Assembly (NCBI GenBank): GCA_035624785.1
Contig: DASPQV010000049.1
Location: 5,731 to 69,730 of the forward strand
Length of the DNA stretch: 64,000 bases
Reading direction: 5' to 3'
From: Candidatus Binatia bacterium
GTDB lineage: Bacteria > Chloroflexota > Dormibacteria > Aeolococcales > Aeolococcaceae
In this document: positions 4,676 to 23,820 of the stretch, piece by piece
Layout of the letters: each line of letters opens with the position of its first letter
Numbering within the stretch: the first letter of the stretch is position 1
Notes under the pieces: model-generated
Databases searched by the model: none
Told to the model about the DNA's origin: nothing
The model's input: only the letters and a program-made list of their open reading frames with translations
Program-made: the position numbers and the translations under genes

Positions 4676-6304
4676 CTATGCCGCCCCTGCGCCCGGCCCC
4701 CGGTTGAGCGCGTGGTGGAGACCCCGCAGCTGCCGGTAGGCGGCCTGATACTGCCGGAACATGACGTCGTAGGTCGCCCTGTTCTCGGGCCTGGGGTCGA
4801 AGCTCCGGCTGACCCGCACCGTGGCGCGCAGGCTGGCGAAGCTGGGATGCATTCCGAGGGCGACCCCGGCGGCCAGGGCGGCGCCCACCGCACCGGCATC
4901 CTGCGGATCCTCGACGACCTCGAGCCGGCGCCCGGTGACGTCGGCGATGATCTGCATCCAGACCCCGCTTCGCGCCCCCCCGCCGACGACGCGCAGCACC
5001 GGTGAGGCCAGCCGGAAGTCCTGCGCCAGCCGCTCCAGGATCCACCGGAAATTGAAGGCGACGCCTTCGAGGATGGCCCGGACCAGGGTTCCGCGGCGGT
5101 GTTCGGGGCCGAGGTTGATGAAGGACGACCGCAGCAGCGGGTCGTCGACCGGCACGCGCTCGCCGTACATCCACGGGGTGAAGAGCAGGGAATCGGAGCC
5201 TGGGGCCACCGCCTCGGCCTCCGCGTCCATCTCGGCGAACGCATCGCCGAGCGGGCGCCCGCTCTCCCGCGCTCGAAACAGCTCGTTGGCAGCCCACTCC
5301 AGGCAGGCGCCCCCGGTCTCCATCTCGGCGATCAGCAGGTTGCGATCCGGGTCGCCGGACTGGATGACGGCCACGCCGTGGCGTCCGGTCGGATGCCCCG
5401 AGGTGATCGTCACCACCCATCCCGAGGTGCCCAGGTAGAGGTGGGCCTCGCCGTCGCCGATCGCTCCCGATCCGATCGCGGCGGCGGCGGCGTCGCCCAT
5501 TCCGGACACGATCGGGGTGCCCTCGGGGATGCCGAGGTCCGCGGCCGCGGCGGGGATGGCGGCGCCGGCCACGGCATTGGGGCGGAGCAGCGGCGGCAGC
5601 TTGCTCACGTCGATGCCGGCGTAGCGCATGATCCCGCTGAGCCAGGCCTTGCGCTTGAGGTCGAGGCCGAACGCCGACGCTCCGGTCCATTCCATGGCGC
5701 TGTGGCCGGTGCAGCGCAGCAGCAGGTAGCCGCCGACGTCGACGAAGCAGGCCATGCGATCCCAGGTGTCGGGCTCGTGCCGGCGCAGCCACTGGAGCTT
5801 GGGCATGCCGTCCTTGCCTGACAGCGTCGCCCCCGCCAGGCGTTCAAAGAGGCGCGCACCCCCGAACCGGCGCATTATGGCCACCGCCTCGGCACCGGCC
5901 CGGCCGTCCAGCCAGATGATGGGGCGGCGGAGCACGGTGCCGGCGCCGTCCACAGGCACCACACCGAGCATCTGGGTGCTGAAGGTGAGGCAGGCGGGAG
6001 CCGCCCCGTCCCGGCCGGCGAGCACGGCACGGGTGCCGGCGCAGACCGCCCGCCACCAGTCGGACGCGTCCTGCTCGGCCCACCCCACCTCGGGGTAGCA
6101 GGTCGGGTAGGGCTCGACGTGCTTGGCCACGACCCTCCCGCCGGCGTCGGCCAGCACCGTCTTGACGCCGCTGGTCCCGACGTCGTGGGCGACGATCAGG
6201 TCTCGGCTGGCGGGGTCGGCTGGCGTGTCCACTTCCGGTCGGGCAGCAGCATCCGACCTCGGTGGACCGCGCTCACAGAGGCGAAGGGCCCGGTTGAGGT
6301 GCAT
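4676..6304 (-). CDS. FGGY-family carbohydrate kinase (xylulokinase/glycerol-kinase-like)
   Basis: N-terminal DVGTSGVKT phosphate-1 motif, GDAAAAAIGSG, and C-terminal VVGGGARSGVWMQIIADVTG. The start is uncertain: ATG at 6304, or GTG at 6232 (VDTPADP...). Confidence 0.85.
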   Translation of the reverse strand: MHLNRALRLCERGPPRSDAAARPEVDTPADPASRDLIVAHDVGTSGVKTVLADAGGRVVAKHVEPYPTCYPEVGWAEQDASDWWRAVCAGTRAVLAGRDGAAPACLTFSTQMLGVVPVDGAGTVLRRPIIWLDGRAGAEAVAIMRRFGGARLFERLAGATLSGKDGMPKLQWLRRHEPDTWDRMACFVDVGGYLLLRCTGHSAMEWTGASAFGLDLKRKAWLSGIMRYAGIDVSKLPPLLRPNAVAGAAIPAAAADLGIPEGTPIVSGMGDAAAAAIGSGAIGDGEAHLYLGTSGWVVTITSGHPTGRHGVAVIQSGDPDRNLLIAEMETGGACLEWAANELFRARESGRPLGDAFAEMDAEAEAVAPGSDSLLFTPWMYGERVPVDDPLLRSSFINLGPEHRRGTLVRAILEGVAFNFRWILERLAQDFRLASPVLRVVGGGARSGVWMQIIADVTGRRLEVVEDPQDAGAVGAALAAGVALGMHPSFASLRATVRVSRSFDPRPENRATYDVMFRQYQAAYRQLRGLHHALNRGPGAGAA

Positions 6305-6411
6305 CGAACGACCCTTGGCCTGCTTGACGCCGCGGGACCAGACTGGCTGTGGTACGGGACGCCCTGGTCGTGCGGTTGCTCCGCTGGGCCTCGGGGCTGT
6401 CCCGGTCGGAC

Positions 6412-8745
6412 ATGGTCGTCTCGGAGGACGGAACTGTGAGCGTCGACGTCTCCGTCAGCCGGCAGGTGGTCGACACCTGCCGCGAGCTGCTCGCCCGCGG
6501 CTTCCTCAAGGTGAACGAGGGCAACGTGTCGGTGCGCGTCCCGGGGAGCCCGCGCTTCGCGATCACGGCGTCGGGGCGCGACTACGACACCCTCACCGAG
6601 GAGGACGTCTGCATCCTCGACCTCCAGCTGCACCGGATCGCGGGCACCCGCAAGCCGTCTATCGAGTCCGGTCTGCACGCCGCCGCCTACCGCCACCGGC
6701 CCGACGTCAATGTGGTGGTCCACACGCATCAGCCCTTCGCCAGCGCCCTGGCGATCATGCGCAAGCCGATCCCGGCGCTCTTCGACGAGCAGGTTCGCTT
6801 CCTGGGCCGCGGCGTGCCGATCGTCGGCTACGCGCCCTCTGGGACCGGCCTGCTGCGGCGTGGCGTCGAGGCCCGGATCCGGGCCGGGGGCAACGCCTTC
6901 ATCCTCGCCAACCACGGAGTCCTGGTGCTGGGCCAGGACGTCGACCACGCCGTCCACAACCTGGCGATCCTCGAGAAGGTCTCGCAGGCCTATCTGATGA
7001 GCCTGATGACCGCCGAGCGCACCCGGCGGATCCCGCTGCTGGTCAGGGAGATTGCGTTCGCCCAGCTGCGCAAGGAGGAGCGGGCGGCGGCGTCAGGCGA
7101 CGGTGCCGGGCCGCATGGTGCGGCGGGCGCGGCGGCGAACGTCCACGGGAACGGTGTGAAGCCGCTGGTCGCGCTGGCAGGGGAGAGGCCGGAGCCGGCG
7201 GGAGCGCTGGCGGGGGAGAGGCCGGAGCCGGCGGCGCGGCCGCTGGAGCCGCCGGCCGCCGTCCAGCCGCCGGCGAATGCCGGGATATCTGCCGGCGGGG
7301 CCGACTCCGCGATCAGCAGGTACCCGGATGTGGAGGCGGTCTACGCGAGATTGAACCGCCTTGTCGAGCAGCCGATGCGTCGGGTCCGCCGCTCCTACAT
7401 GGCTGAATGCCTTGGCTACTTCGACACCAAATGCCAGCGTTCCCGCCAGCTCACCGACCGAGCCAGGCTGAGCATCCCCGGGGGGGTGCAGCACAACCTT
7501 GCCTTCAACCACCCCTTCCCGATCGCCGTCGAGCGCGCCGAGGGAGCCTATCTCTGGGATGTCGACGGCAACCGGTACATCGACTTCCTGCAGGCGGGCG
7601 GGCCCACCATTCTGGGCAGCAACTGGGCGCCGCTGCAGGAACGCGTCATCGAGGTGCTGCACACCTCCGGGCCGGTGACCGGGCTCTTTCACGAGTACGA
7701 GCTGAAGCTGGCCGAGCTGGTCCGCCGACTGGTGCCGTCGGTCGAGATGCTGCGCATGTTCGGCTCCGGCAGCGAGGCGGTGATGGCCGCCCTCCGGGCC
7801 GCCCGCGCCTCCACCAAGAAGGCCTACGTCATCAAGATGGGCGGCGCCTACCACGGCTGGAGCGACCAGATGGTCTACGGGCTGCACGTCCCCGGCACCC
7901 GGCGGTTCGAGTCCAAGGGGATTCCCCGGCCGGCCACCAGCCGCACCTGCGAGGTGTACCCGAACTCGGTGGCGGCGCTGCGGCGCAAGCTGACCGAGAA
8001 CCGGCTGCGGGGCGGCACCGCTGCCGTGATCGTCGAGCCACTCGGTCCGGAGAGCGGAACCCGGCCTGTCGACTTCGACTTCAACGCCCGTGCCCGCGAG
8101 CTCTGCGACGAGTTCGGCGCCCTGCTCATCTTCGACGAGGTGGTCACCGGGTTCCGGGTGGGCTTGGGCGGCGCCCAGGCGTACTTCGGGGTGCGCCCGG
8201 ACCTCACCATCTTCGGGAAGTGCATCGCCGGGGGCTATCCGATGGCCGGTGCGGTGGGCGGCCGCTCCGACGTGATGTCGACGATGGCGGCCGGGATCGG
8301 GGGCACCGGCGAGCGCGCCTACGTGGGCGGCACCCTGTCGGCCAACCCGCTCTCCTGCGCCGCCGGGTACTTCGCGCTCCTGGAGATGGAGAGGACGGGT
8401 GCGCCGGTCATCGCCGGTCGGGCCGGCGACCGGCTGGCCCGCGGCCTGGAGCAGGTCATCGAGCGTCGCGGACTGCCCTACGTCGTCTACAACACCGGCT
8501 CCATCGTCCACCTGGAGACGTCCGGGGTGATGCTCCTCGACCTGCACCATCCGGTGCGGCTGCTCCGCGAGCTCAAGCCGCGCCGGACCATGATCGAGGA
8601 GATGGGCGCTGCCTACATGGCCAAGGGGATCGTCACGCTCGCCGGGTCCCGGATCTACACCTCGATGGCGGACACCGACGAGGTGATCGACGACGCGGTG
8701 CGGCGCTTCGACGAGGTCTTCGCCCACGTGGAGGGGGTGCGGTAG
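6412..8745 (+). CDS. Single-ORF fusion: N-terminal class II aldolase/adducin domain, low-complexity linker, then a class III (glutamate-1-semialdehyde aminomutase-like) PLP aminotransferase domain
   Basis: Aldolase part: NEGNVSVR, SIESGLHAAAY, VVVHTHQPFASALA, ILANHGVLVLG. Aminotransferase part: IPGGVQHN, GSGSEAVMAALRAAR, LIFDEVVTGFRVGLGGAQAYFG, FGKCIAGGYP (PLP lysine). No stop codon lies between the parts. Possible starts are ATG 6349, ATG 6412, or GTG 6436, which is preceded by GGAGGA. Confidence 0.7.
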   Translation: MVVSEDGTVSVDVSVSRQVVDTCRELLARGFLKVNEGNVSVRVPGSPRFAITASGRDYDTLTEEDVCILDLQLHRIAGTRKPSIESGLHAAAYRHRPDVNVVVHTHQPFASALAIMRKPIPALFDEQVRFLGRGVPIVGYAPSGTGLLRRGVEARIRAGGNAFILANHGVLVLGQDVDHAVHNLAILEKVSQAYLMSLMTAERTRRIPLLVREIAFAQLRKEERAAASGDGAGPHGAAGAAANVHGNGVKPLVALAGERPEPAGALAGERPEPAARPLEPPAAVQPPANAGISAGGADSAISRYPDVEAVYARLNRLVEQPMRRVRRSYMAECLGYFDTKCQRSRQLTDRARLSIPGGVQHNLAFNHPFPIAVERAEGAYLWDVDGNRYIDFLQAGGPTILGSNWAPLQERVIEVLHTSGPVTGLFHEYELKLAELVRRLVPSVEMLRMFGSGSEAVMAALRAARASTKKAYVIKMGGAYHGWSDQMVYGLHVPGTRRFESKGIPRPATSRTCEVYPNSVAALRRKLTENRLRGGTAAVIVEPLGPESGTRPVDFDFNARARELCDEFGALLIFDEVVTGFRVGLGGAQAYFGVRPDLTIFGKCIAGGYPMAGAVGGRSDVMSTMAAGIGGTGERAYVGGTLSANPLSCAAGYFALLEMERTGAPVIAGRAGDRLARGLEQVIERRGLPYVVYNTGSIVHLETSGVMLLDLHHPVRLLRELKPRRTMIEEMGAAYMAKGIVTLAGSRIYTSMADTDEVIDDAVRRFDEVFAHVEGVR
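7171..7236 (+). repeat. 33-bp tandem duplication (2 copies, 2-3 mismatches) inside the inter-domain linker
   Basis: gcgctggcaggggagaggccggagccggcggga is followed by gcgctggcgggggagaggccggagccggcggcg, encoding ALAGERPEPAG/ALAGERPEPAA. Confidence 0.85.
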
Positions 8746-12511: not shown

Positions 12512-12519
12512 GCTTCGGG

Positions 12520-12745
12520 GTCGCCGGCAGCCGCGCCGACCAGGGGGTGCTCCCAGTTGATGTCGAAGTAGGCAGAAAGTGAGCTGCTCCGGCCGCACCC
12601 CGGGACGGCCAGGAACGCCGCCTCGCCGCCAGCCCCGCCGAGATACGGGTGGGGTCGACCACGTCGTAGCCGTGCCTGGAGCCCGAGGCACCAAGGAGGA
12701 TCGGGGAGCACCCGGTAGCTGGCGATCCGGCTGCTCAGCGGGGCG
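12520..12745 (-). pseudogene. Decayed relic of a malto-oligosyltrehalose synthase (TreY-like GH13) N-terminus
   Basis: On the minus strand, in order but in shifted frames: ASYRVL (cf. TreY STYRLQ), GSRHGYDVVDPTRIS, LGGEAAFLAV, then AYFDINWEHPL (cf. TreY FDIDW). The spacing is far shorter than in intact TreY, so there are deletions as well as at least 2 frameshifts. Confidence 0.35.
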
Positions 12746-12965
12746 GGCCCGGCGGCCGCACCCGACCTGGGGTATCCTGGCGGTCCCGGTGCGCACCTCT
12801 CCCGGCTCTCCGCGCCTCCCTCCCGTGATCGCCGTCCTCGAGGGCATCCTCGCCCCGGGGCCCCGCGCCCGGCGGGCCGCCGAGACGGCGAGGCGCGCCG
12901 GCTGGGGGCGCTGAGGGGGTGTACCATCGCTTGCCGCTCGTATGAACAGCGCCTTGGAGTTTGAC

Positions 12966-13997
12966 ATGGAGAAACCCCCGATCCCCGTTGCGGTGGTTGG
13001 CCTCGGACCGATCGGACTGCGCATCTGCCGGCGGATCCTGGCGCGCCCTGAGCTGCTCCAACTCGTGGCCGTCACTGACAAGGCACCGGAGATCGGAGGC
13101 CGCAGGTTGGCGGATCTGCTCCCCGAGGCCTCCGCGTCCGAGCTCGTGATCAACCGCGAATATCCGGCGGCGCCGCGGGCTGGAGGAGTCCTGGTGCAGA
13201 CAACCACCTCGCACCTGACTGATTCCCATCAGCAGCTGCGAGACTTCGTGGAGCTGGGCTGGAACGTGGTATCCACGTGCGAGGAGCTCTCCGAGCCGCT
13301 GAGCGTCGATCCCAAGACCGCGGCCGACCTCGACGCACTGGCACGAGGCAAAGCGGTGACGATCCTGGGGACGGGGGTCAATCCCGGCTTCATGATGGAC
13401 ACCCTGCCGCTCGCCCTGACCACCCTGTGCGCCCAGGTCACCGCCGTACGTGTCCACCGGGTGGTCGACACCAACCTGCGACGCGAGCCTCTGCAGCGCA
13501 AGGCGGGCGTTGGGATGTCGGCGGACGAGTTCCGCGCCCTGGCTGCCGCCGGGCGGATCGGCCACGTGGGTCTGCTGCAGTCGCTCCACCTGATCGCGAG
13601 AGGGCTGGGATGGGCCCTCGACTCGACCGAGGTCCGGCTCGAGCCGGTGATCGCTGAGCGGGAGACGGCCAGCGGCATCGGTCCGGTCCCAGCGGGGAGC
13701 GTGATCGGCCAGGCCCAGGTGGCCACCGGCCACGTCGGGGCCAGGGAGGTCATTCGCTTCGAGCTGGAGATGGTGGCGGGCAGGCCCGGCACCGACGAGG
13801 TGTGGATCACCGGTGATCCGTCCTTCCACGAGGAGATCCATGGAGGGATCAACGGCGACATCGGCACCGAAGCGGTCGTCACCAACCTCATCGGGCCGGT
13901 GGCCGAGGCCAGACCCGGGCTGCTGACCATGGCTGATCTCGTGCCCCTGGGATGCCGAGCCGGTCTCGGGGGGATGCCCGCCACACACCAGGGATAA
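12966..13997 (+). CDS. NAD(P)-dependent amine dehydrogenase / 2,4-diaminopentanoate dehydrogenase-like protein (DapB-N-type Rossmann fold)
   Basis: VAVVGLGPIGLRI dinucleotide motif, LGTGVNPGFMMDTLPL motif. GGAG lies 6 nt before the ATG at 12966 (the track ORF starts at 12942). Confidence 0.6.
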   Translation: MEKPPIPVAVVGLGPIGLRICRRILARPELLQLVAVTDKAPEIGGRRLADLLPEASASELVINREYPAAPRAGGVLVQTTTSHLTDSHQQLRDFVELGWNVVSTCEELSEPLSVDPKTAADLDALARGKAVTILGTGVNPGFMMDTLPLALTTLCAQVTAVRVHRVVDTNLRREPLQRKAGVGMSADEFRALAAAGRIGHVGLLQSLHLIARGLGWALDSTEVRLEPVIAERETASGIGPVPAGSVIGQAQVATGHVGAREVIRFELEMVAGRPGTDEVWITGDPSFHEEIHGGINGDIGTEAVVTNLIGPVAEARPGLLTMADLVPLGCRAGLGGMPATHQG

Positions 13998-14024
13998 CCA
14001 GCGACTCCGGGAGGGCTTGCAACC

Positions 14025-15380
14025 GTGGACGCCCAGACCTCCACCGTCGAGGATGAGTTCGTCGGGACTCACATGGCGTCGGATGAGCTTTTCAGACGCC
14101 AGGCCAAGGTGGTCCCGGGCGGCGTGACCCACATGGCCCGAGCCTTCGAGCCGTTCCCTCTCTTCATCAGCGCCCTGTCAGGCGCCCACAAGCAGGATGT
14201 CGACGGACACGATTACGTCGACTACTGGATGGCTCATGGGGCCAACCTGCTGGGTCATCGACATCCCGCCGTGCACGAGGCCATCCAGCGTCAACTCGAG
14301 CGAGGCCTGCATGCCTGTGGAGAGAACGAGACGGCGGTGGCGCTGGCTGAAGCTGTCTGCCGGATGGTGCCGTCGGCGAGCCGGGTGCGCTTCTGCGCCT
14401 CGGGGGGCGAGGCGACCCAACTGGCCATCAGGCTTGCCCGCGCCTACTCCGGACACGAGCGCATCATCAAGTTCGAGCACCACTTCCATGGCTGGCACGA
14501 CGCGGTGGCCTTCGGCTTCCCGCCCAGCGATACGCCGTGGTCCTCGGGACTCCCCGACGCCCTCCAATCCCTGACCGTGGTGCTGCCGTTCAACGACGCC
14601 GATGCGCTCTCCAGGTACCTCTCCGAGGATGCCCAGGTGGCCGGAGTGCTGCTGGAGCCGGGCGGTGCCCACAGCGACACGGTCCCGGTGGATCCAGCCT
14701 TCCTGCGCACGGTTCGCGAGCTCTGCACCGAGCACGGGGTGGTCCTGGTATTCGATGAGGTGGTCACCGGTTTCCGGTACGCCAGGGGAGGGGCGCAGGA
14801 GTTCTTCGGGGTGACCCCGGACGTCACCGCCCTGGGCAAGATCATGGGTGGCGGTCTGCCCATCGGGGCGGTGGCGGGGGGGGCGGACATCATGGAGGTG
14901 CTGGCCCCGCGGCGCGGAGACGAGGTGCGTCCCTACGTCCCCCAATACGGAACCTGGAACGGGATGCCGATTGCCGCCGCCGCAGGGTTGGCGGCCCTGA
15001 GAGTGGTCGAGACCAGCGACGTCATCCAGGCGACGGTGCGCCGGACCGACCAGCTGAGAGCTGCCCTGAATAGGGTGCTGCGCCAGCGTGGCGTGGAAGG
15101 CACCGCCTATGGCCGGTCGTCGATCTGGAAGACGTACCTCGGCGAACCCCTGAAGCTCCTCGACGGTGACTACACCCGGGCCAGGGAGGACGGCATCCGT
15201 CTGGCCAGCTCATCGGGCCCGCGCGCCCGCGTTCTGCGGCAGTCGATGATCCTCGACGGCGTCGACGTCATGTACGGTGGCGGCTTCATGTCGGCCGCGC
15301 ACGATGACGCGGACCTGGAGCGCACCGTCACCGCGTTCGACCGGGCCCTGACGCGGCTGCAGGAGGCGGGGCTGGTGTAG
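14025..15380 (+). CDS. Class III PLP aminotransferase, glutamate-1-semialdehyde 2,1-aminomutase-like
   Basis: VVPGGVTH, ASGGEATQLAIRLAR, LVFDEVVTGFRYARGGAQEFFG, ALGKIMGGGLP (PLP lysine). GTG start preceded by GGGAGGG. Confidence 0.85.
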   Translation: MDAQTSTVEDEFVGTHMASDELFRRQAKVVPGGVTHMARAFEPFPLFISALSGAHKQDVDGHDYVDYWMAHGANLLGHRHPAVHEAIQRQLERGLHACGENETAVALAEAVCRMVPSASRVRFCASGGEATQLAIRLARAYSGHERIIKFEHHFHGWHDAVAFGFPPSDTPWSSGLPDALQSLTVVLPFNDADALSRYLSEDAQVAGVLLEPGGAHSDTVPVDPAFLRTVRELCTEHGVVLVFDEVVTGFRYARGGAQEFFGVTPDVTALGKIMGGGLPIGAVAGGADIMEVLAPRRGDEVRPYVPQYGTWNGMPIAAAAGLAALRVVETSDVIQATVRRTDQLRAALNRVLRQRGVEGTAYGRSSIWKTYLGEPLKLLDGDYTRAREDGIRLASSSGPRARVLRQSMILDGVDVMYGGGFMSAAHDDADLERTVTAFDRALTRLQEAGLV

Positions 15381-15381
15381 C

Positions 15382-16770
15382 GTGGCCCTGCACCATCACG
15401 AGCCGGGTGAGGCGGAGCTGGAGGTCAACCCGCTGTACGCGTCGGCCGCGGCCCGCGGCCGTGTCCCCAAGCTGCGCATCCCCGACCAGCCCATGGATCC
15501 GGAGACCGCCTACCAGATCGTCCACGACGAGCTGATGCTGGACGGGAACGCGCGGCTCAACCTGGCCACCTTCGTCACCACCTGGATGGAGCCGCAGGCC
15601 AACCGGCTCATCGTCGAGGCGCTCGACAAGAACGTCATCGACAAGGATGAGTATCCGCAGACCGCGGAGATCGAGCGGCGCTGCGTCCACATCCTCGCCT
15701 CACTCTGGCATGCGCCGCCCCGGCGGACCGCGGTCGGGTGCTCCACAACCGGTTCCAGTGAGGCGGCGATGCTGGCCGGCCTGGCGCTCAAGTGGCGCTG
15801 GCGCGAGGCCCGCCGCTCCGCCGGCGGTTCCGCCGATCGGCCCAACCTGGTGATGGGCATCAACGTCCAGGTGTGCTGGGAGAAGTTCTGCCGGTACTGG
15901 GACGTGGAGCCGCGCTTCGTGCCCATGGAGGGAGATCGGCGCCATCTCACCGGCGAGGAGGCGGTGAAGCTCTGCGACCAGGACACCATCGGGGTGGTGG
16001 CGGTGCTCGGCTCCACCCAGGACGGCAGCTACGAGCCGGTGGCCGAGATCTGCGCGGCCCTGGATGGGCTCCGAGATTGCGGCGGCCCCGACGTGCCGGT
16101 GCACGTCGATGCCGCCTCGGGGGGCTTCGTGGCCCCCTTCGTGCAGCCCCAGCTGGTCTGGGACTTCCGGCTCGACCGGGTGGCGTCCATCAACAGCTCC
16201 GGCCACAAGTACGGCCTGGTCTACCCCGGGGTGGGCTGGGTGATCTGGCGCGACCGCGAGGCCCTGCCCGAGCCGCTGATCTTCCGGGTCAACTACCTGG
16301 GCGGGAGCATGCCCACCTTTGCCCTCAACTTCTCCCGACCGGGCGCCCAGGTCATCGCCCAGTACTACAACCTCATCCGGCTCGGCTTCGAGGGTTACCG
16401 GCTGGTCCAGCAGACATCCCTGGACACCGCCCGCCACATCTCCGACGCCGTCAGCCGCATCGGTCCATTCCGGCTGCTCACCGACGGCAGCGAGCTGCCG
16501 GTGTTCGCCTTCGCGCTCCGCCCCGAGGTCGATCGCTACACCGTCTTCGACGTGTCCGACGGGCTGCGCAAGCGCGGCTGGCAGGTCCCCGCCTACCACC
16601 TGCCCCGCAACCTTCAGGCGACCGCGGTGCTCCGGGTGGTGGTGCGCAACGGGATGTCACGCGACCTCGCCGACCTGCTGATCGCCGACCTGAGGAGGGA
16701 GGTCGCCCAGCTCGACAAGCTCTCCGCTCGTCTGCCCCAGCACCCCGACCGGGCCCGCTTCCACCATTGA
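15382..16770 (+). CDS. Glutamate decarboxylase (group II PLP decarboxylase)
   Basis: NLATFVTTWMEP, DKDEYPQTAEIE, SINSSGHKYGLVYPGVGWVIWRD (PLP lysine motif). The GTG start lies 1 nt after the preceding stop. Confidence 0.9.
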   Translation: MALHHHEPGEAELEVNPLYASAAARGRVPKLRIPDQPMDPETAYQIVHDELMLDGNARLNLATFVTTWMEPQANRLIVEALDKNVIDKDEYPQTAEIERRCVHILASLWHAPPRRTAVGCSTTGSSEAAMLAGLALKWRWREARRSAGGSADRPNLVMGINVQVCWEKFCRYWDVEPRFVPMEGDRRHLTGEEAVKLCDQDTIGVVAVLGSTQDGSYEPVAEICAALDGLRDCGGPDVPVHVDAASGGFVAPFVQPQLVWDFRLDRVASINSSGHKYGLVYPGVGWVIWRDREALPEPLIFRVNYLGGSMPTFALNFSRPGAQVIAQYYNLIRLGFEGYRLVQQTSLDTARHISDAVSRIGPFRLLTDGSELPVFAFALRPEVDRYTVFDVSDGLRKRGWQVPAYHLPRNLQATAVLRVVVRNGMSRDLADLLIADLRREVAQLDKLSARLPQHPDRARFHH

Positions 16771-16780
16771 GGGCTGAGCC

Positions 16781-17168
16781 ATGCCTGACAAGGACATCGA
16801 GGCTTGGGTGTCCGCACACGACGCGCCGGTCGCGGCGATCCTGGAGGCCGCCCGCGAGGCCATCAAGGGCGAGGTGCCCGGCACCGTGGAGTGGATCAAC
16901 GGCTGGAAGATGCTGGCGTTCGGGCCGCGTCCCAAGATGAACGCCTGCCAGTTCGTGCTCGACGCCCGGGGCAGACCGCGTCAACCTCGAGTTCGCCGCC
17001 GGTGCTGCCCTGGACGACCCGAGCGGCCTGCTCGAGGGGACCGGCAAGTCGCTGCGCCATCTCAAGCTGCGCCAGCCCTCCGACCTGGGCCGGCCCGAGG
17101 TGCGCGCCCTGATCAGGGCGGGGGCCGCGGCCGCGCCCAGCTGGCAGCCGGGGGGTCGCAAGGCATGA
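16781..17168 (+). pseudogene. DUF1801 (YdhG-like) domain gene interrupted by a +1 frameshift in a G-run near 16967..16971
   Basis: Frame 1 gives MPDKDIEAW...GWKMLAFGPRPKMNACQFVLDAR and then Arg/Pro-rich nonsense. Dropping one G gives ADRVNLEFAAGAALDDPSGLLEGTGKSLRHLKLRQPSDLGRPEVRALIRAG..., ending at TGA 17166..17168, a typical DUF1801 C-terminus. Confidence 0.6.
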
Positions 17169-23196: not shown

Positions 23197-23820
23197 TCAG
23201 CCTGGTTCCGCCTCCCGCTCGTCGCCCAGGCCGGCGGCTCGCCGGAGGGCGCGCAGCTGGATAACCTTGCAGGTCCCCGGGGTCACCCCCAGCGCGGTCG
23301 CCGTCTCGCTGACCGAGTAGCCGCGCAGGAAGCGCAGCTCGAGGATGCGGCGATCCCGGTCTCCGAGCCGGGCCAGGATGGAGTGGAGCCGGCGCTCGCC
23401 CTTCGGCAGCGGCGCTCCCGCCGGCCGGGCGCGCGTCTCCTCCAGCAGTTCCTCGGCCCGATGGGCGGAGCGCTCGTTGAAGTGGTCCGCGACCAGGCAG
23501 CGCGCGGTGGTCAGCAGGTATGCGTGGACCTCCTCCGGGGCCGCCTCCGGGCGCAGCCGTGGCAGGGCGCGGAGGAAGACCTGGGCGCAGACGTCCTCGC
23601 TGTCGGCGCGGTTGCCAACCCGGGAGAGCACGTAGCGGAACACCAGGTGGGCCTCGCGGCGGTAGACCACCGCCCAGTCCTCGGCGGCGGGCCGGGCCGA
23701 GGGCTCCAGGTGCAGGACATGGAGCGGCGCGCGCCAGGCCTCGGCGGCCGGTCGGGGGCCTCGGTCGTCCACGTGCTGTTCCACGGGCGGCGGCCCTGCC
23801 CGGTTCAACAGCGTGGCCAC
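23197..23820 (-). CDS. ECF-type sigma-70 family RNA polymerase sigma factor
   Basis: Region 2 (VFRYVLSRVGNRADSEDVCAQVFLRA) and region 4 HTH (ILELRFLRGYSVSETATALGVTPGTCKVIQLRALRR). The start is uncertain. Confidence 0.8.
   Translation of the reverse strand: MATLLNRAGPPPVEQHVDDRGPRPAAEAWRAPLHVLHLEPSARPAAEDWAVVYRREAHLVFRYVLSRVGNRADSEDVCAQVFLRALPRLRPEAAPEEVHAYLLTTARCLVADHFNERSAHRAEELLEETRARPAGAPLPKGERRLHSILARLGDRDRRILELRFLRGYSVSETATALGVTPGTCKVIQLRALRRAAGLGDEREAEPG

What the first reader, a model, noticed from the sequence alone, without database searches (positions are those of the whole stretch)
12942..17168. Tight cassette: amine-dehydrogenase-like protein, class III aminotransferase/aminomutase, glutamate decarboxylase and DUF1801
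Four co-oriented genes have 27-nt, 1-nt and 10-nt spacers. The first resembles the DapB-N-type NAD(P) amine dehydrogenases / 2,4-diaminopentanoate dehydrogenases (GVNPGF motif). The second is a GSA-aminomutase-like enzyme and a paralog of the domain fused to the aldolase at 7.4-8.7 kb. The third is a bona fide glutamate decarboxylase. This combination is neither the GABA shunt (no succinate-semialdehyde dehydrogenase) nor the ornithine/lysine fermentation set (no B12 aminomutase). It could be a short route that interconverts amino, keto and diamino C4/C5 acids. Several rows in 12.9-14.3 kb hand-count at about 57-63% GC against 70% or more typical elsewhere. The cassette is flanked by a gene relic and ends in a frameshifted gene, which is compatible with acquisition and ongoing decay.
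Basis: partly seen in the sequence, partly recalled or inferred. Interest (0 to 1): 0.6.

Follow-up and report, generated by a model that had tools for sequence, protein, structure and literature searches.

The report
Orphan amine dehydrogenase–aminotransferase pair joined to GAD
Four tightly packed genes in an uncultured soil bacterium (Dormibacterota) join an amine dehydrogenase of unknown natural function and its usual aminotransferase partner to an ordinary glutamate decarboxylase; the pair recurs in many microbes, but the link to the decarboxylase was found only in this genome, so it is a weak but testable clue to what the dehydrogenase does.

Summary
Four co-oriented genes lie at 12942-17168 with 27-, 1- and 10-nt spacers, each preceded by a Shine-Dalgarno-like motif.

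- **Gene 1** is not DapB and not Ord. Its active-site signature places it in group G1 of the native amine dehydrogenases, whose physiological substrate is unknown (PMC11164908).
- **Gene 2** is a GSAM/D-phenylglycine-aminotransferase-like class III enzyme. It is neither HemL nor GabT; both are encoded elsewhere in the genome.
- **Gene 3** is a true glutamate decarboxylase, the only one in the genome.
- **Gene 4** is a DUF1801 gene broken by one extra G.

The dehydrogenase-aminotransferase pair recurs in 32 of 163 related loci from several phyla, in either order. Glutamate decarboxylase (GAD) accompanies it in none of them. GAD has 71-85% orthologues in relatives, always in other contexts. Gene 1 was not found as an orthologue in 60 related genomes.

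The GC and codon-usage dip is modest, at about the 10th-28th percentile for GC, GC3 and gene 1 codon score (gene 2 codon score is at the 44th), and is not an outlier.

Best reading (0.45): an accessory amino-acid catabolic operon whose aminotransferase yields L-glutamate, which GAD converts to GABA for the gabT/gabD genes elsewhere.

This scan has already noted the same pair on other DNA (e1-949312 and others). Only the GAD link is new here.

The parts
12512..12941 (.). Upstream non-coding stretch, the presumed promoter region, holding a weak TreY-like relic at 12630-12707 on the - strand
   Evidence: No coding GC3 signal here. No sigma-70 consensus match. TIGR02401 gives a weak match, E 3.2e-4 and 19.8 bits, at G000:C49:18360-18437, which is window 12630-12707.
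12942..13997 (+). Native amine dehydrogenase of group G1 (NAD(P)-dependent, DapB-like N-terminal domain plus DAP_DH_C); the likely true start is ATG 12966
   Evidence: PF19328 at 1.3e-31. NF040740 Ord scores 218 bits, below its 400 cut-off. Best solved relative is AmDH4, 6g1h, 1.6e-44. Active-site positions mapped through AmDH4 P1-P21 are S90, C113, E114, G145, V146, N147, F150, M151, R173, V175, D176, R180, L184, H208, V209 and G210. This is the G1 pattern: Cys at P2, Arg at P12.
14025..15380 (+). Class III PLP aminotransferase of the GSA-aminomutase / D-phenylglycine-aminotransferase subgroup; neither HemL nor GabT
   Evidence: Aminotran_3 at 8.9e-57. hemL TIGR00713 scores 328 against a 527 cut-off; GabT TIGR00700 scores 139 against 507. 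Best solved relatives are D-PhgAT 2cy8 (2e-78) and GSAM 5i92 (1.3e-77). GGGAGGG lies 10 nt before the GTG start.
15382..16770 (+). Glutamate decarboxylase, PLP-dependent; the only GAD in the genome
   Evidence: TIGR01788 at 649.5 bits against a 380.4 cut-off. Matches L. brevis GAD 5gp4 at 5.8e-145 with the SGHKYGLVYPGVGWVIWRD block identical. A single tblastn hit in the genome. Orthologues of 71-85% occur in the same family.
16781..17168 (+). DUF1801 (YdhG-like) gene interrupted by a +1 frameshift in the G-run at 16967-16971
   Evidence: The two frames are visible. The read-through protein P0364 scores 34.6 bits against a 27.2 cut-off over profile positions 3-83 of 85. Not found in 24 same-family genomes.

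Best explanation
This is an accessory four-gene operon for breaking down an amino acid or amine that cannot yet be named. It was built by joining a widespread two-enzyme module to the lineage's own glutamate decarboxylase.

The module consists of a G1-type native amine dehydrogenase and a GSAM/D-PhgAT-like class III aminotransferase.

Proposed flow:
1. The aminotransferase (PLP) moves an amino group from the substrate to 2-oxoglutarate and gives L-glutamate.
2. The G1 dehydrogenase removes, with NAD(P)+, a second amino group or the amino group of a related carboxylated C5-type acid. Its pocket keeps the catalytic Glu and the carboxylate-binding Arg and His of 2,4-diaminopentanoate dehydrogenase, and adds a second pair of arginines (R180, R181).
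3. GAD decarboxylates the L-glutamate to GABA.
4. GABA leaves the operon and is oxidised by the canonical GabT and the SSADH-like dehydrogenases encoded on another contig.

Shown: gene identities, tight co-orientation, recurrence of the dehydrogenase-aminotransferase pair, and the presence of gabT and SSADH-like genes elsewhere.

Inferred: co-transcription, the use of 2-oxoglutarate/L-glutamate by the aminotransferase, the substrate class, and the functional coupling to GAD.
For: **Operon structure.** Spacers are 27, 1 and 10 nt. Each start has an SD-like motif and no terminator-like site lies inside.

**G1 assignment.** Gene 1 aligns with AmDH4, and the AmDH4 P1-P21 map comes from the supplement of PMC11164908. 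That paper states that the G1 substrate is unknown but probably carries a carboxylate plus a further negative or H-bond-accepting group.

**The pair recurs.**
- A GSAM-like class III aminotransferase lies within 1.5 kb of the G1 gene in 32 of 163 loci. The phyla include Actinomycetota, Bacillota, Aminicenantes and Bathyarchaeota. Both gene orders occur, and some pairs are convergent.
- Pairs about 50% identical to ours, in the same order, occur in L010, L205 and L207.

**Context of the closest relatives.** These genes sit among amino-acid, D-amino-acid and peptide genes: AA permease, peptide ABC transporters, M55 and M20 peptidases, a PF00144 hydrolase, OSBS/NSAR-type enolase-superfamily genes, a proline-racemase family member and a D-serine-dehydratase-like gene.

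**GAD and the downstream steps.** GAD is genuine and the only copy. GabT scores 558 bits, above its cut-off, and two flanking SSADH-like aldehyde dehydrogenases lie on contig C41. A true HemL lies on C48.
Against: - The link to GAD rests on one genome. GAD is absent from all 163 related loci, and the 71-85% GAD orthologues sit behind a TetR gene or beside other genes.
- GAD has strongly native codon usage (95th percentile), whereas genes 1 and 2 lie at the 28th-44th. This fits a secondary juxtaposition.
- No transporter or regulator lies in the cassette.
- No member of G1, and no aminotransferase of this clade, has a known substrate, so the chemistry is inferred from family properties only.
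- The closest relatives of gene 1 that I examined (54-56% identity) lack the aminotransferase. The closest relatives of gene 2 that I examined (59-61%) lack the dehydrogenase.
Confidence: 0.45

Rival explanations
1. Chance juxtaposition. The dehydrogenase-aminotransferase module has its own GAD-independent function and merely landed upstream of, or was recombined next to, a glutamate decarboxylase gene. The genes are co-transcribed but share no pathway.
For: - GAD is never next to the pair elsewhere: 0 of 163 loci.
- GAD orthologues in relatives lie in other contexts, such as TetR-GAD-BacA, or a second decarboxylase plus an unknown gene followed by GAD.
- Codon usage differs between genes 1-2 and GAD.
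- The neighbourhood (NUDIX, BNR, GH15) is unrelated.
Against: - The 1-nt spacer with an SD motif inside the end of gene 2 suggests selected co-expression.
- Class III aminotransferases commonly make L-glutamate, which is GAD's substrate (family knowledge).
- The TetR gene that precedes GAD in the closest orthologues is missing here, so GAD appears to depend on the upstream promoter.
Confidence: 0.3
2. A racemase-free D-glutamate route, or one for another D-configured or 4-amino dicarboxylate. The G1 enzyme would oxidise D-glutamate to 2-oxoglutarate. The D-PhgAT-like stereo-inverting aminotransferase would reload 2-oxoglutarate to L-glutamate. GAD would then give GABA.
For: - The G1 pocket keeps Arg at P9 and His at P15 and adds Arg at P12 where the methyl of 2,4-diaminopentanoate sits.
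- Replacing that methyl of (4S)-4-aminopentanoate with a carboxylate gives the geometry of (R)-glutamate. This is my own stereochemical inference.
- The best solved relative of the aminotransferase clade is stereo-inverting D-PhgAT: marginally for ours, 267 against 265 bits, more clearly for L207, 267 against 240 bits.
- Related pairs sit with D-aminopeptidase-type genes (M55, PF00144), NSAR-type racemases and a proline-racemase family member.
- All three enzymes would then be glutamate-centred.
Against: - No assay exists, and I found no report that D-glutamate was tested on G1.
- The paper's screens of G1 members with several dicarboxylic or diamino acids, including diaminopimelate, were mostly negative.
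- The D-amino-acid context is anecdotal. A Pfam tally of 126 neighbours showed only the enolase-superfamily gene recurring among metabolic families, in 5 members.
- D-PhgAT and GSAM are equally close to our protein.
Confidence: 0.12
3. A side path on C5 tetrapyrrole-precursor skeletons. The GSAM-like enzyme and the dehydrogenase would interconvert glutamate-1-semialdehyde, 4,5-diaminovalerate, 5-aminolevulinate and 4,5-dioxovalerate.
For: - The partner aminotransferase in every subclade falls in the GSA-aminomutase subgroup.
- These compounds are all 4-substituted pentanoates, like the substrates of AmDH4 (family knowledge).
Against: - A true HemL exists elsewhere.
- No hem genes lie near this or the related loci I examined.
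- A pocket with two arginines and a lysine fits a carboxylate better than an aldehyde or an amine.
Confidence: 0.05
4. An ornithine-type route with gene 1 acting as a 2,4-diaminopentanoate dehydrogenase (Ord).
For: The only NCBIfam match of gene 1 is Ord, and the family domain is named after it.
Against: - The score of 218 is below the 400 cut-off.
- P12 is Arg rather than Phe, and P10 is Val rather than Asn.
- No aminomutase or thiolase partner lies in the window.
- The G1 members that the paper screened were mostly inactive on 2-amino-4-oxopentanoate.
Confidence: 0.03

Closest known systems
Group G1 of the native amine dehydrogenase (nat-AmDH) family (Mayol et al. 2019; Elisée et al. 2024, PMC11164908)
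   Same: - Same fold and Pfam domain (PF19328).
- Catalytic Glu at P3.
- Active-site signature with Cys at P2, Arg at P9, Arg at P12 and His at P15.
- All 160 fetched relatives share R180, R181 and K187; nearly all share Q185.
   Different: Nothing separates it from G1 by sequence. The group itself has no known physiological substrate, and the paper reports no consensual genomic context for it. Here the gene sits with an aminotransferase and a GAD.
2,4-diaminopentanoate dehydrogenase Ord / AmDH4 of Petrotoga mobilis (group G2; PDB 6g1h, 6g1m)
   Same: Closest solved structure (1.6e-44). It shares the Rossmann GxGxxG motif, the GVNPGF loop, the catalytic Glu, and the carboxylate-binding Arg and His.
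   Different: - P12 is Phe in AmDH4 and Arg here; P10 is Asn there and Val here; P2 is Ala there and Cys here.
- The score is below the NCBIfam Ord cut-off.
- No ornithine aminomutase or 2-amino-4-ketopentanoate thiolase genes are nearby.
Glutamate-1-semialdehyde 2,1-aminomutase (HemL) and stereo-inverting D-phenylglycine aminotransferase (PDB 2cy8, 6dvs)
   Same: Same subgroup of class III PLP enzymes. The N-terminal PGGV...ARAF substrate-carboxylate motif is kept.
   Different: The score is below every HemL model cut-off, and a genuine HemL is encoded on contig C48. Similarity to D-PhgAT and to GSAM is about equal, so substrate and stereochemistry cannot be read from sequence.
GABA shunt (GadB, GabT, GabD)
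   Same: A genuine GAD is present here. A genuine GabT and SSADH-like dehydrogenases lie elsewhere in the genome, so glutamate to GABA to succinate is encoded overall.
   Different: - The aminotransferase in the cassette is not GabT.
- No SSADH or Glu/GABA antiporter lies in the cassette.
- GAD is coupled to two enzymes that the classical shunt does not contain.
N-succinylamino-acid racemase pathway for D- to L-amino-acid conversion (Geobacillus kaustophilus; recalled from Sakai et al. 2006, not re-read here)
   Same: Related dehydrogenase-aminotransferase pairs (L010, L207, L045, L067, L083) lie beside an OSBS/NSAR-type enolase-superfamily gene that scores 309-349 bits on TIGR01928, above its cut-off. 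In L207 the pair also lies beside M20 and M55 peptidases.
   Different: These genes are absent from the present window, and no succinyltransferase was seen. The resemblance is one of context only.

Membership tests
nat-AmDH family, group G1 | C-terminal DAP_DH_C domain (PF19328) behind a DapB-like NAD(P)-binding domain with GxGxxG | tested here: met
   PF19328 at 110 bits against a 23.3 cut-off. GLGPIG lies at residues 20-25 and is invariant in the alignment.
nat-AmDH family, group G1 | Catalytic glutamate at P3 (AmDH4 E102) | tested here: met
   E114 aligns with E102 of AmDH4 (with the P-map). It is present in all 160 fetched relatives.
nat-AmDH family, group G1 | G1 active-site pattern: Arg at P9, Arg at P12 (Phe in G2), His at P15, Cys at P2 | tested here: met
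   R173, R180, H208 and C113 by pairwise alignment to AmDH4. The mapping is by sequence only, not by a superposed model.
nat-AmDH family, group G1 | NAD(P)H-dependent reductive amination or oxidative deamination activity | not testable with these tools
   Needs an enzyme assay.
2,4-diaminopentanoate dehydrogenase (Ord, NF040740) | Score above the curated equivalog cut-off, and the G2 pocket (Phe at P12, Asn at P10) | tested here: not met
   218.1 bits against a cut-off of 400. P12 is Arg and P10 is Val.
2,4-diaminopentanoate dehydrogenase (Ord, NF040740) | Neighbourhood with ornithine racemase, aminomutase and AKP thiolase genes | tested here: not met
   None is among the annotated neighbours of the window. 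A genome-wide search for the aminomutase family was uninformative because the control rang nowhere.
DapB (4-hydroxy-tetrahydrodipicolinate reductase) | Match to TIGR00036 | tested here: not met
   No match anywhere in the genome at E <= 0.001, gene 1 included.
HemL (glutamate-1-semialdehyde 2,1-aminomutase) | Score above the TIGR00713 cut-off of 527.3 | tested here: not met
   328 bits for gene 2. The true HemL at G000:C48:19340-20581 scores 559.7.
GabT (4-aminobutyrate aminotransferase) | Score above the TIGR00700 cut-off of 506.65 | tested here: not met
   139 bits for gene 2. The true GabT at G000:C41:17540-18763 scores 557.7.
Glutamate decarboxylase (TIGR01788) | Score above the equivalog cut-off, and the PLP-lysine motif S-G-H-K | tested here: met
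   649.5 bits against a cut-off of 380.4. The SGHKYGLVYPGVGW block is identical to that of L. brevis GAD 5gp4.
DUF1801 (PF08818) | Score above the gathering cut-off of 27.2 over the whole domain | tested here: met
   Met only when the one-base shift is read through: 34.6 bits over profile positions 3-83 of 85. The C-terminal piece alone scores 23.2 bits. As it stands the frame is broken.

The most novel reading that the evidence does not exclude
The G1 native amine dehydrogenases are NAD(P)-dependent dehydrogenases for D-glutamate, or for a closely related 4-amino dicarboxylate. With their habitual GSAM/D-PhgAT-like aminotransferase they would form a racemase-free way to turn D-configured amino acids from peptides or cell walls into 2-oxoglutarate and L-glutamate. 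In this genome the route is extended by GAD to GABA. This would assign a physiological role to an enzyme group of more than a thousand sequences that a 2024 survey left without one.
Probability: 0.12. Interest if true: 0.75.

Novelty: new variant of a known kind. Interest (0 to 1): 0.42.

Why it matters
Native amine dehydrogenases are sought as biocatalysts. Group G1, with about 1,400 modelled members, has no known natural substrate, and the 2024 family survey found no informative gene context for it.

This locus and its relatives show that a GSAM-like aminotransferase is the one recurrent partner of G1, present in about a fifth of the loci I fetched. They also show that in one genome the pair was wired directly to a glutamate decarboxylase. 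That narrows the first substrates to test to glutamate-family C5 acids, including the D-forms.

For the biology of Dormibacterota the locus is an ordinary accessory catabolic operon.

Tried and rejected
- **Recent transfer from composition:** rejected as a strong claim. The trio sits at about the 10th percentile for GC. Genes 1 and 2 sit at the 20th-25th percentile for GC3 and the 28th-44th for codon score.
- **Mobile-element footprints:** only short chance repeats, and no tRNA or integrase next to the cassette.
- **Promoter and terminator consensus scan:** nothing found, as expected for a 71% GC genome. It is not informative.
- **Synteny with the three same-genus genomes:** failed. They are too divergent; the BNR neighbour is 47% identical at best and the NUDIX gene gave no match.
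- **Pfam tally of 126 neighbours of the pair:** dominated by TPR proteins of one subclade. Only the enolase-superfamily gene (5 members) recurs among metabolic families. I did not run the matching control set, so no enrichment is claimed.
- **Idea that gene 1 replaces a missing glutamate racemase:** rejected. MurI is also not found in the three congeners, which lack gene 1 too.
- **DUF1801 travelling with the aminotransferase:** rejected. The DUF1801 gene near the closest aminotransferase homologue (L124) is unrelated.
- **Ornithine aminomutase family search:** uninformative, because the control rang nowhere.
- **The look-up of sequencing runs was closed.** Neither the frameshift nor expression could be checked against reads.
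- **Structure prediction and complex prediction were not run.** The tools return no coordinates for pocket inspection, and neighbouring genes alone do not justify a binding test.


Full report
**1. What is in the sequence**

Between 12942 and 17168 four ORFs follow each other on the + strand: 12942-13997, 14025-15380, 15382-16770 and 16781-17168.
- Each start has a purine-rich SD-like motif: GGGAGGG 10 nt before GTG 14025, GGAGG inside the end of gene 2 before GTG 15382, and GAGGG before ATG 16781.
- Third-position GC marks all four as coding in these frames. It also shows the frame change inside the last gene.
- No terminator-like or sigma-70-like site was found. In a 71% GC genome this says little.
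- Gene 1 probably starts at the second ATG (12966). GGAG lies 8 nt upstream of it, the 343-aa database form starts there, and homologue alignments begin near residue 14.

**2. The host**

The window lies on contig C49 of a 3.05-Mb, 71.2% GC, 91%-complete metagenome-assembled genome. The closest named homologues of its GAD are from Candidatus Dormibacteraeota MAGs, at 82%, 75% and 72% identity. Earlier agents reached the same phylum from other parts of this genome. I did not verify the phylum with marker genes.

**3. Gene identities**

*Gene 1.* It matches only PF19328. In NCBIfam it matches only Ord, at 218 bits against a cut-off of 400. It does not match DapB; no TIGR00036 match exists anywhere in the genome. 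Its best solved relative is AmDH4 of Petrotoga mobilis, 6g1h/6g1m, at 1.6e-44.

The supplement of PMC11164908 lists the 21 pocket positions of AmDH4. Carried over by the pairwise alignment, they give S90, C113, E114, G145, V146, N147, F150, M151, R173, V175, D176, R180, L184, H208, V209 and G210. This is the published G1 pattern: Cys at P2, Arg at P9, Arg at P12 where G2 has Phe, and His at P15. It is not the 2,4-diaminopentanoate dehydrogenase (G2) pattern.

The paper states that G1 has no known substrate:
- Its pocket suggests a carboxylate plus a further negative or H-bond-accepting group.
- Docking, virtual screening and NetSyn context analysis gave no clue.
- Lysate screens on a few candidate compounds were mostly negative.

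*Gene 2.* It is a class III aminotransferase of the GSAM-like subgroup. It is below every curated cut-off: hemL 328 against 527, GabT 139 against 507. Its best solved relatives are D-phenylglycine aminotransferase (2e-78) and GSAM (1.3e-77), practically tied. The genome holds a genuine HemL on C48 (559.7 bits) and a genuine GabT on C41 (557.7 bits). The GabT is flanked by two SSADH-like aldehyde dehydrogenases. The genome also holds three ELFV-type amino-acid dehydrogenases.

*Gene 3.* It is a genuine GAD. It scores 649.5 bits on TIGR01788, matches L. brevis GAD at 5.8e-145 and has an identical PLP-lysine block. It is the only GAD in the genome.

*Gene 4.* It is a DUF1801 gene with one extra G in the run at 16967-16971. 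Read through, it gives a 128-aa protein that scores above the Pfam cut-off over the whole domain.

**4. Is the cassette compositionally foreign?**

Hardly.
- The trio has 0.689 GC against a genome mean of 0.713 (sd 0.018 for 3.8-kb windows). That is about the 10th percentile.
- I compared the genes with 956 long ORFs of the genome. Gene 1 is at the 17th, 20th and 28th percentile for GC, GC3 and codon score. Gene 2 is at the 13th, 25th and 44th. GAD is at the 25th, 90th and 95th.
- So nothing is an outlier. Genes 1 and 2 do differ from GAD, which looks fully native.
- No flanking repeats, integrase or tRNA were found.
- The upstream 'relic' has weak support: a TreY profile match at E 3.2e-4 at window 12630-12707 on the - strand.

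**5. Phyletic pattern**

- **Gene 1.** No orthologue was found in 60 related genomes: 3 of the same genus, 33 of the same family and 24 of the same order. The only real match is a 33% paralogue in one genome.
- **This DUF1801 type.** Not found in 24 same-family genomes.
- **GAD.** It has 71-84% orthologues in seven family genomes (58% in an eighth) and 85% orthologues in metagenomes. None of them is near a dehydrogenase, this aminotransferase or a DUF1801 gene. They sit as TetR-GAD-BacA, or behind a second PLP decarboxylase and an unknown gene, or near a CBS-citrate synthase and a PrmC-like methyltransferase.
- **Gene 1 tree.** Gene 1 falls inside a well-supported clade. That clade holds all four Actinomycetota sequences of the sample plus unlabelled metagenome proteins. 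Its nearest relatives are only 54-57% identical. No donor can be named.

**6. What is conserved**

I fetched 80 loci from species genomes and 80 from metagenomes that encode relatives of gene 1, plus three look-ups. All 160 fetched relatives carry the pair of arginines (R180, R181), Lys187 and His208; nearly all carry Gln185. They are therefore G1-like.

- **The aminotransferase partner.** A class III aminotransferase lies within 1.5 kb in 32 of 163 loci. In most of these the gap is under 150 nt, both orders occur and three pairs are convergent. The partner is GSAM-like in every subclade I checked.
- **GAD.** It lies in none of the 163 loci.
- **Neighbour clustering.** Clustering the neighbours of the 82 genome loci showed the aminotransferase as the only widely recurrent neighbour. 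An OSBS/NSAR-type enolase-superfamily gene joins it in a few loci from three phyla.
- **Pairs about 50% identical to ours, in the same order.**
  - L010 and L207: an unknown gene, the NSAR-type gene and a PucR regulator. L207 also has a PF00144 hydrolase and M20 and M55 peptidases.
  - L205 and L206: peptide ABC transporters.
  - L013: an amino-acid permease and an acyl-CoA ligase.
  - L009: a ThDP enzyme.
- **Closest aminotransferase homologues examined (59-61%).** They lack the dehydrogenase. They sit with a proline-racemase family member, a D-serine-dehydratase-like gene, an M55 D-aminopeptidase, an amino-acid permease, RidA and an amidase.
- **Closest dehydrogenase homologues examined (54-56%).** They lack the aminotransferase. 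One overlaps a tyrosine phenol-lyase gene.

The context is amino-acid and peptide catabolism with a D-amino-acid flavour. That flavour is anecdotal and was not tested against a control.

**7. Interpretation**

The conserved unit is the G1 dehydrogenase plus a GSAM-like aminotransferase. The trio is private to this genome among everything I could search.

The simplest functional reading links the three enzymes through glutamate:
1. The aminotransferase loads 2-oxoglutarate to L-glutamate.
2. GAD removes it irreversibly as GABA.
3. The GabT and SSADH-like genes on contig C41 finish the route to succinate.
4. The dehydrogenase deals with a second amino group or a related carboxylated C5-type acid.

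I give this 0.45. A mere juxtaposition without a shared pathway gets 0.30.

A sharper and more novel version gets 0.12. In it, G1 acts on D-glutamate or a like compound. It rests on three things:
- the extra arginines in the pocket;
- my own stereochemical mapping of (4S)-4-aminopentanoate onto (R)-glutamate;
- the kinship of the aminotransferase with stereo-inverting D-PhgAT.

A tetrapyrrole-precursor side path gets 0.05 and a true Ord function gets 0.03.

**8. Relation to earlier notes of this scan**

The same dehydrogenase plus HemL-like aminotransferase pair has been noted on other DNA: e1-949312, with a follow-up that also named G1 and glutamate-type substrates, and e1-5455922, e1-4756951, e1-5485677 and e1-3150148. 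I reached the G1 assignment and the recurrence of the pair from my own searches. Those notes are not independent evidence. What this window adds is the direct coupling to a genuine GAD.

**9. Verdict**

The finding is a new combination of known enzyme families around an orphan enzyme group. It gives a modest, testable lead and is not a new kind of system.

Noticed in passing
whole genome G000 and relatives G001-G003: No match to glutamate racemase (TIGR00067, PF01177) or to DapB (TIGR00036) in this 91%-complete genome. MurI is also not found in the three same-genus genomes, but it is found in 14 of 24 same-family genomes. The genus may obtain D-glutamate, and perhaps lysine, by other routes.
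   Followed up: partly
window 23712-23801 (+): ARAGORN calls an unusually long (90-nt) tRNA-Pro(cgg) that overlaps the ECF-sigma ORF on the opposite strand (23197-23820). It may be a false call.
   Followed up: no
L003:6541-9002 and L004 (ENA contigs): In the closest relatives of gene 1 (55-56% identity), the G1 dehydrogenase gene overlaps by 4 nt the end of a tyrosine phenol-lyase gene. That gene scores 732 bits on TIGR02618, above its cut-off. It is a different partner from the aminotransferase.
   Followed up: partly
L116:9957-12587 and L117:5443-8072 (same-family genomes G027, G011): In one genus of the family, GAD is the third gene of a tight operon. It follows a second PLP-dependent decarboxylase (488 aa) and a 385-388-aa protein with no Pfam match.
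   Followed up: no
window 4676-8745: An FGGY kinase gene lies divergent from a one-ORF fusion of a class II aldolase and a GSAM-like aminotransferase (Pfam confirmed). Its aminotransferase half is 38% identical to gene 2. The scan has already followed this up as e1-4582648.
   Followed up: partly
L009:6605-10714 (Jiangella asiatica) and L013:5119-10675: Other three- or four-gene versions of the pair. In Jiangella the order is aminotransferase, G1 dehydrogenase, ThDP enzyme (PRK08327 type, 562 bits). In an Actinomycetota MAG the order is aminotransferase, amino-acid permease, G1 dehydrogenase, acyl-CoA ligase.
   Followed up: partly
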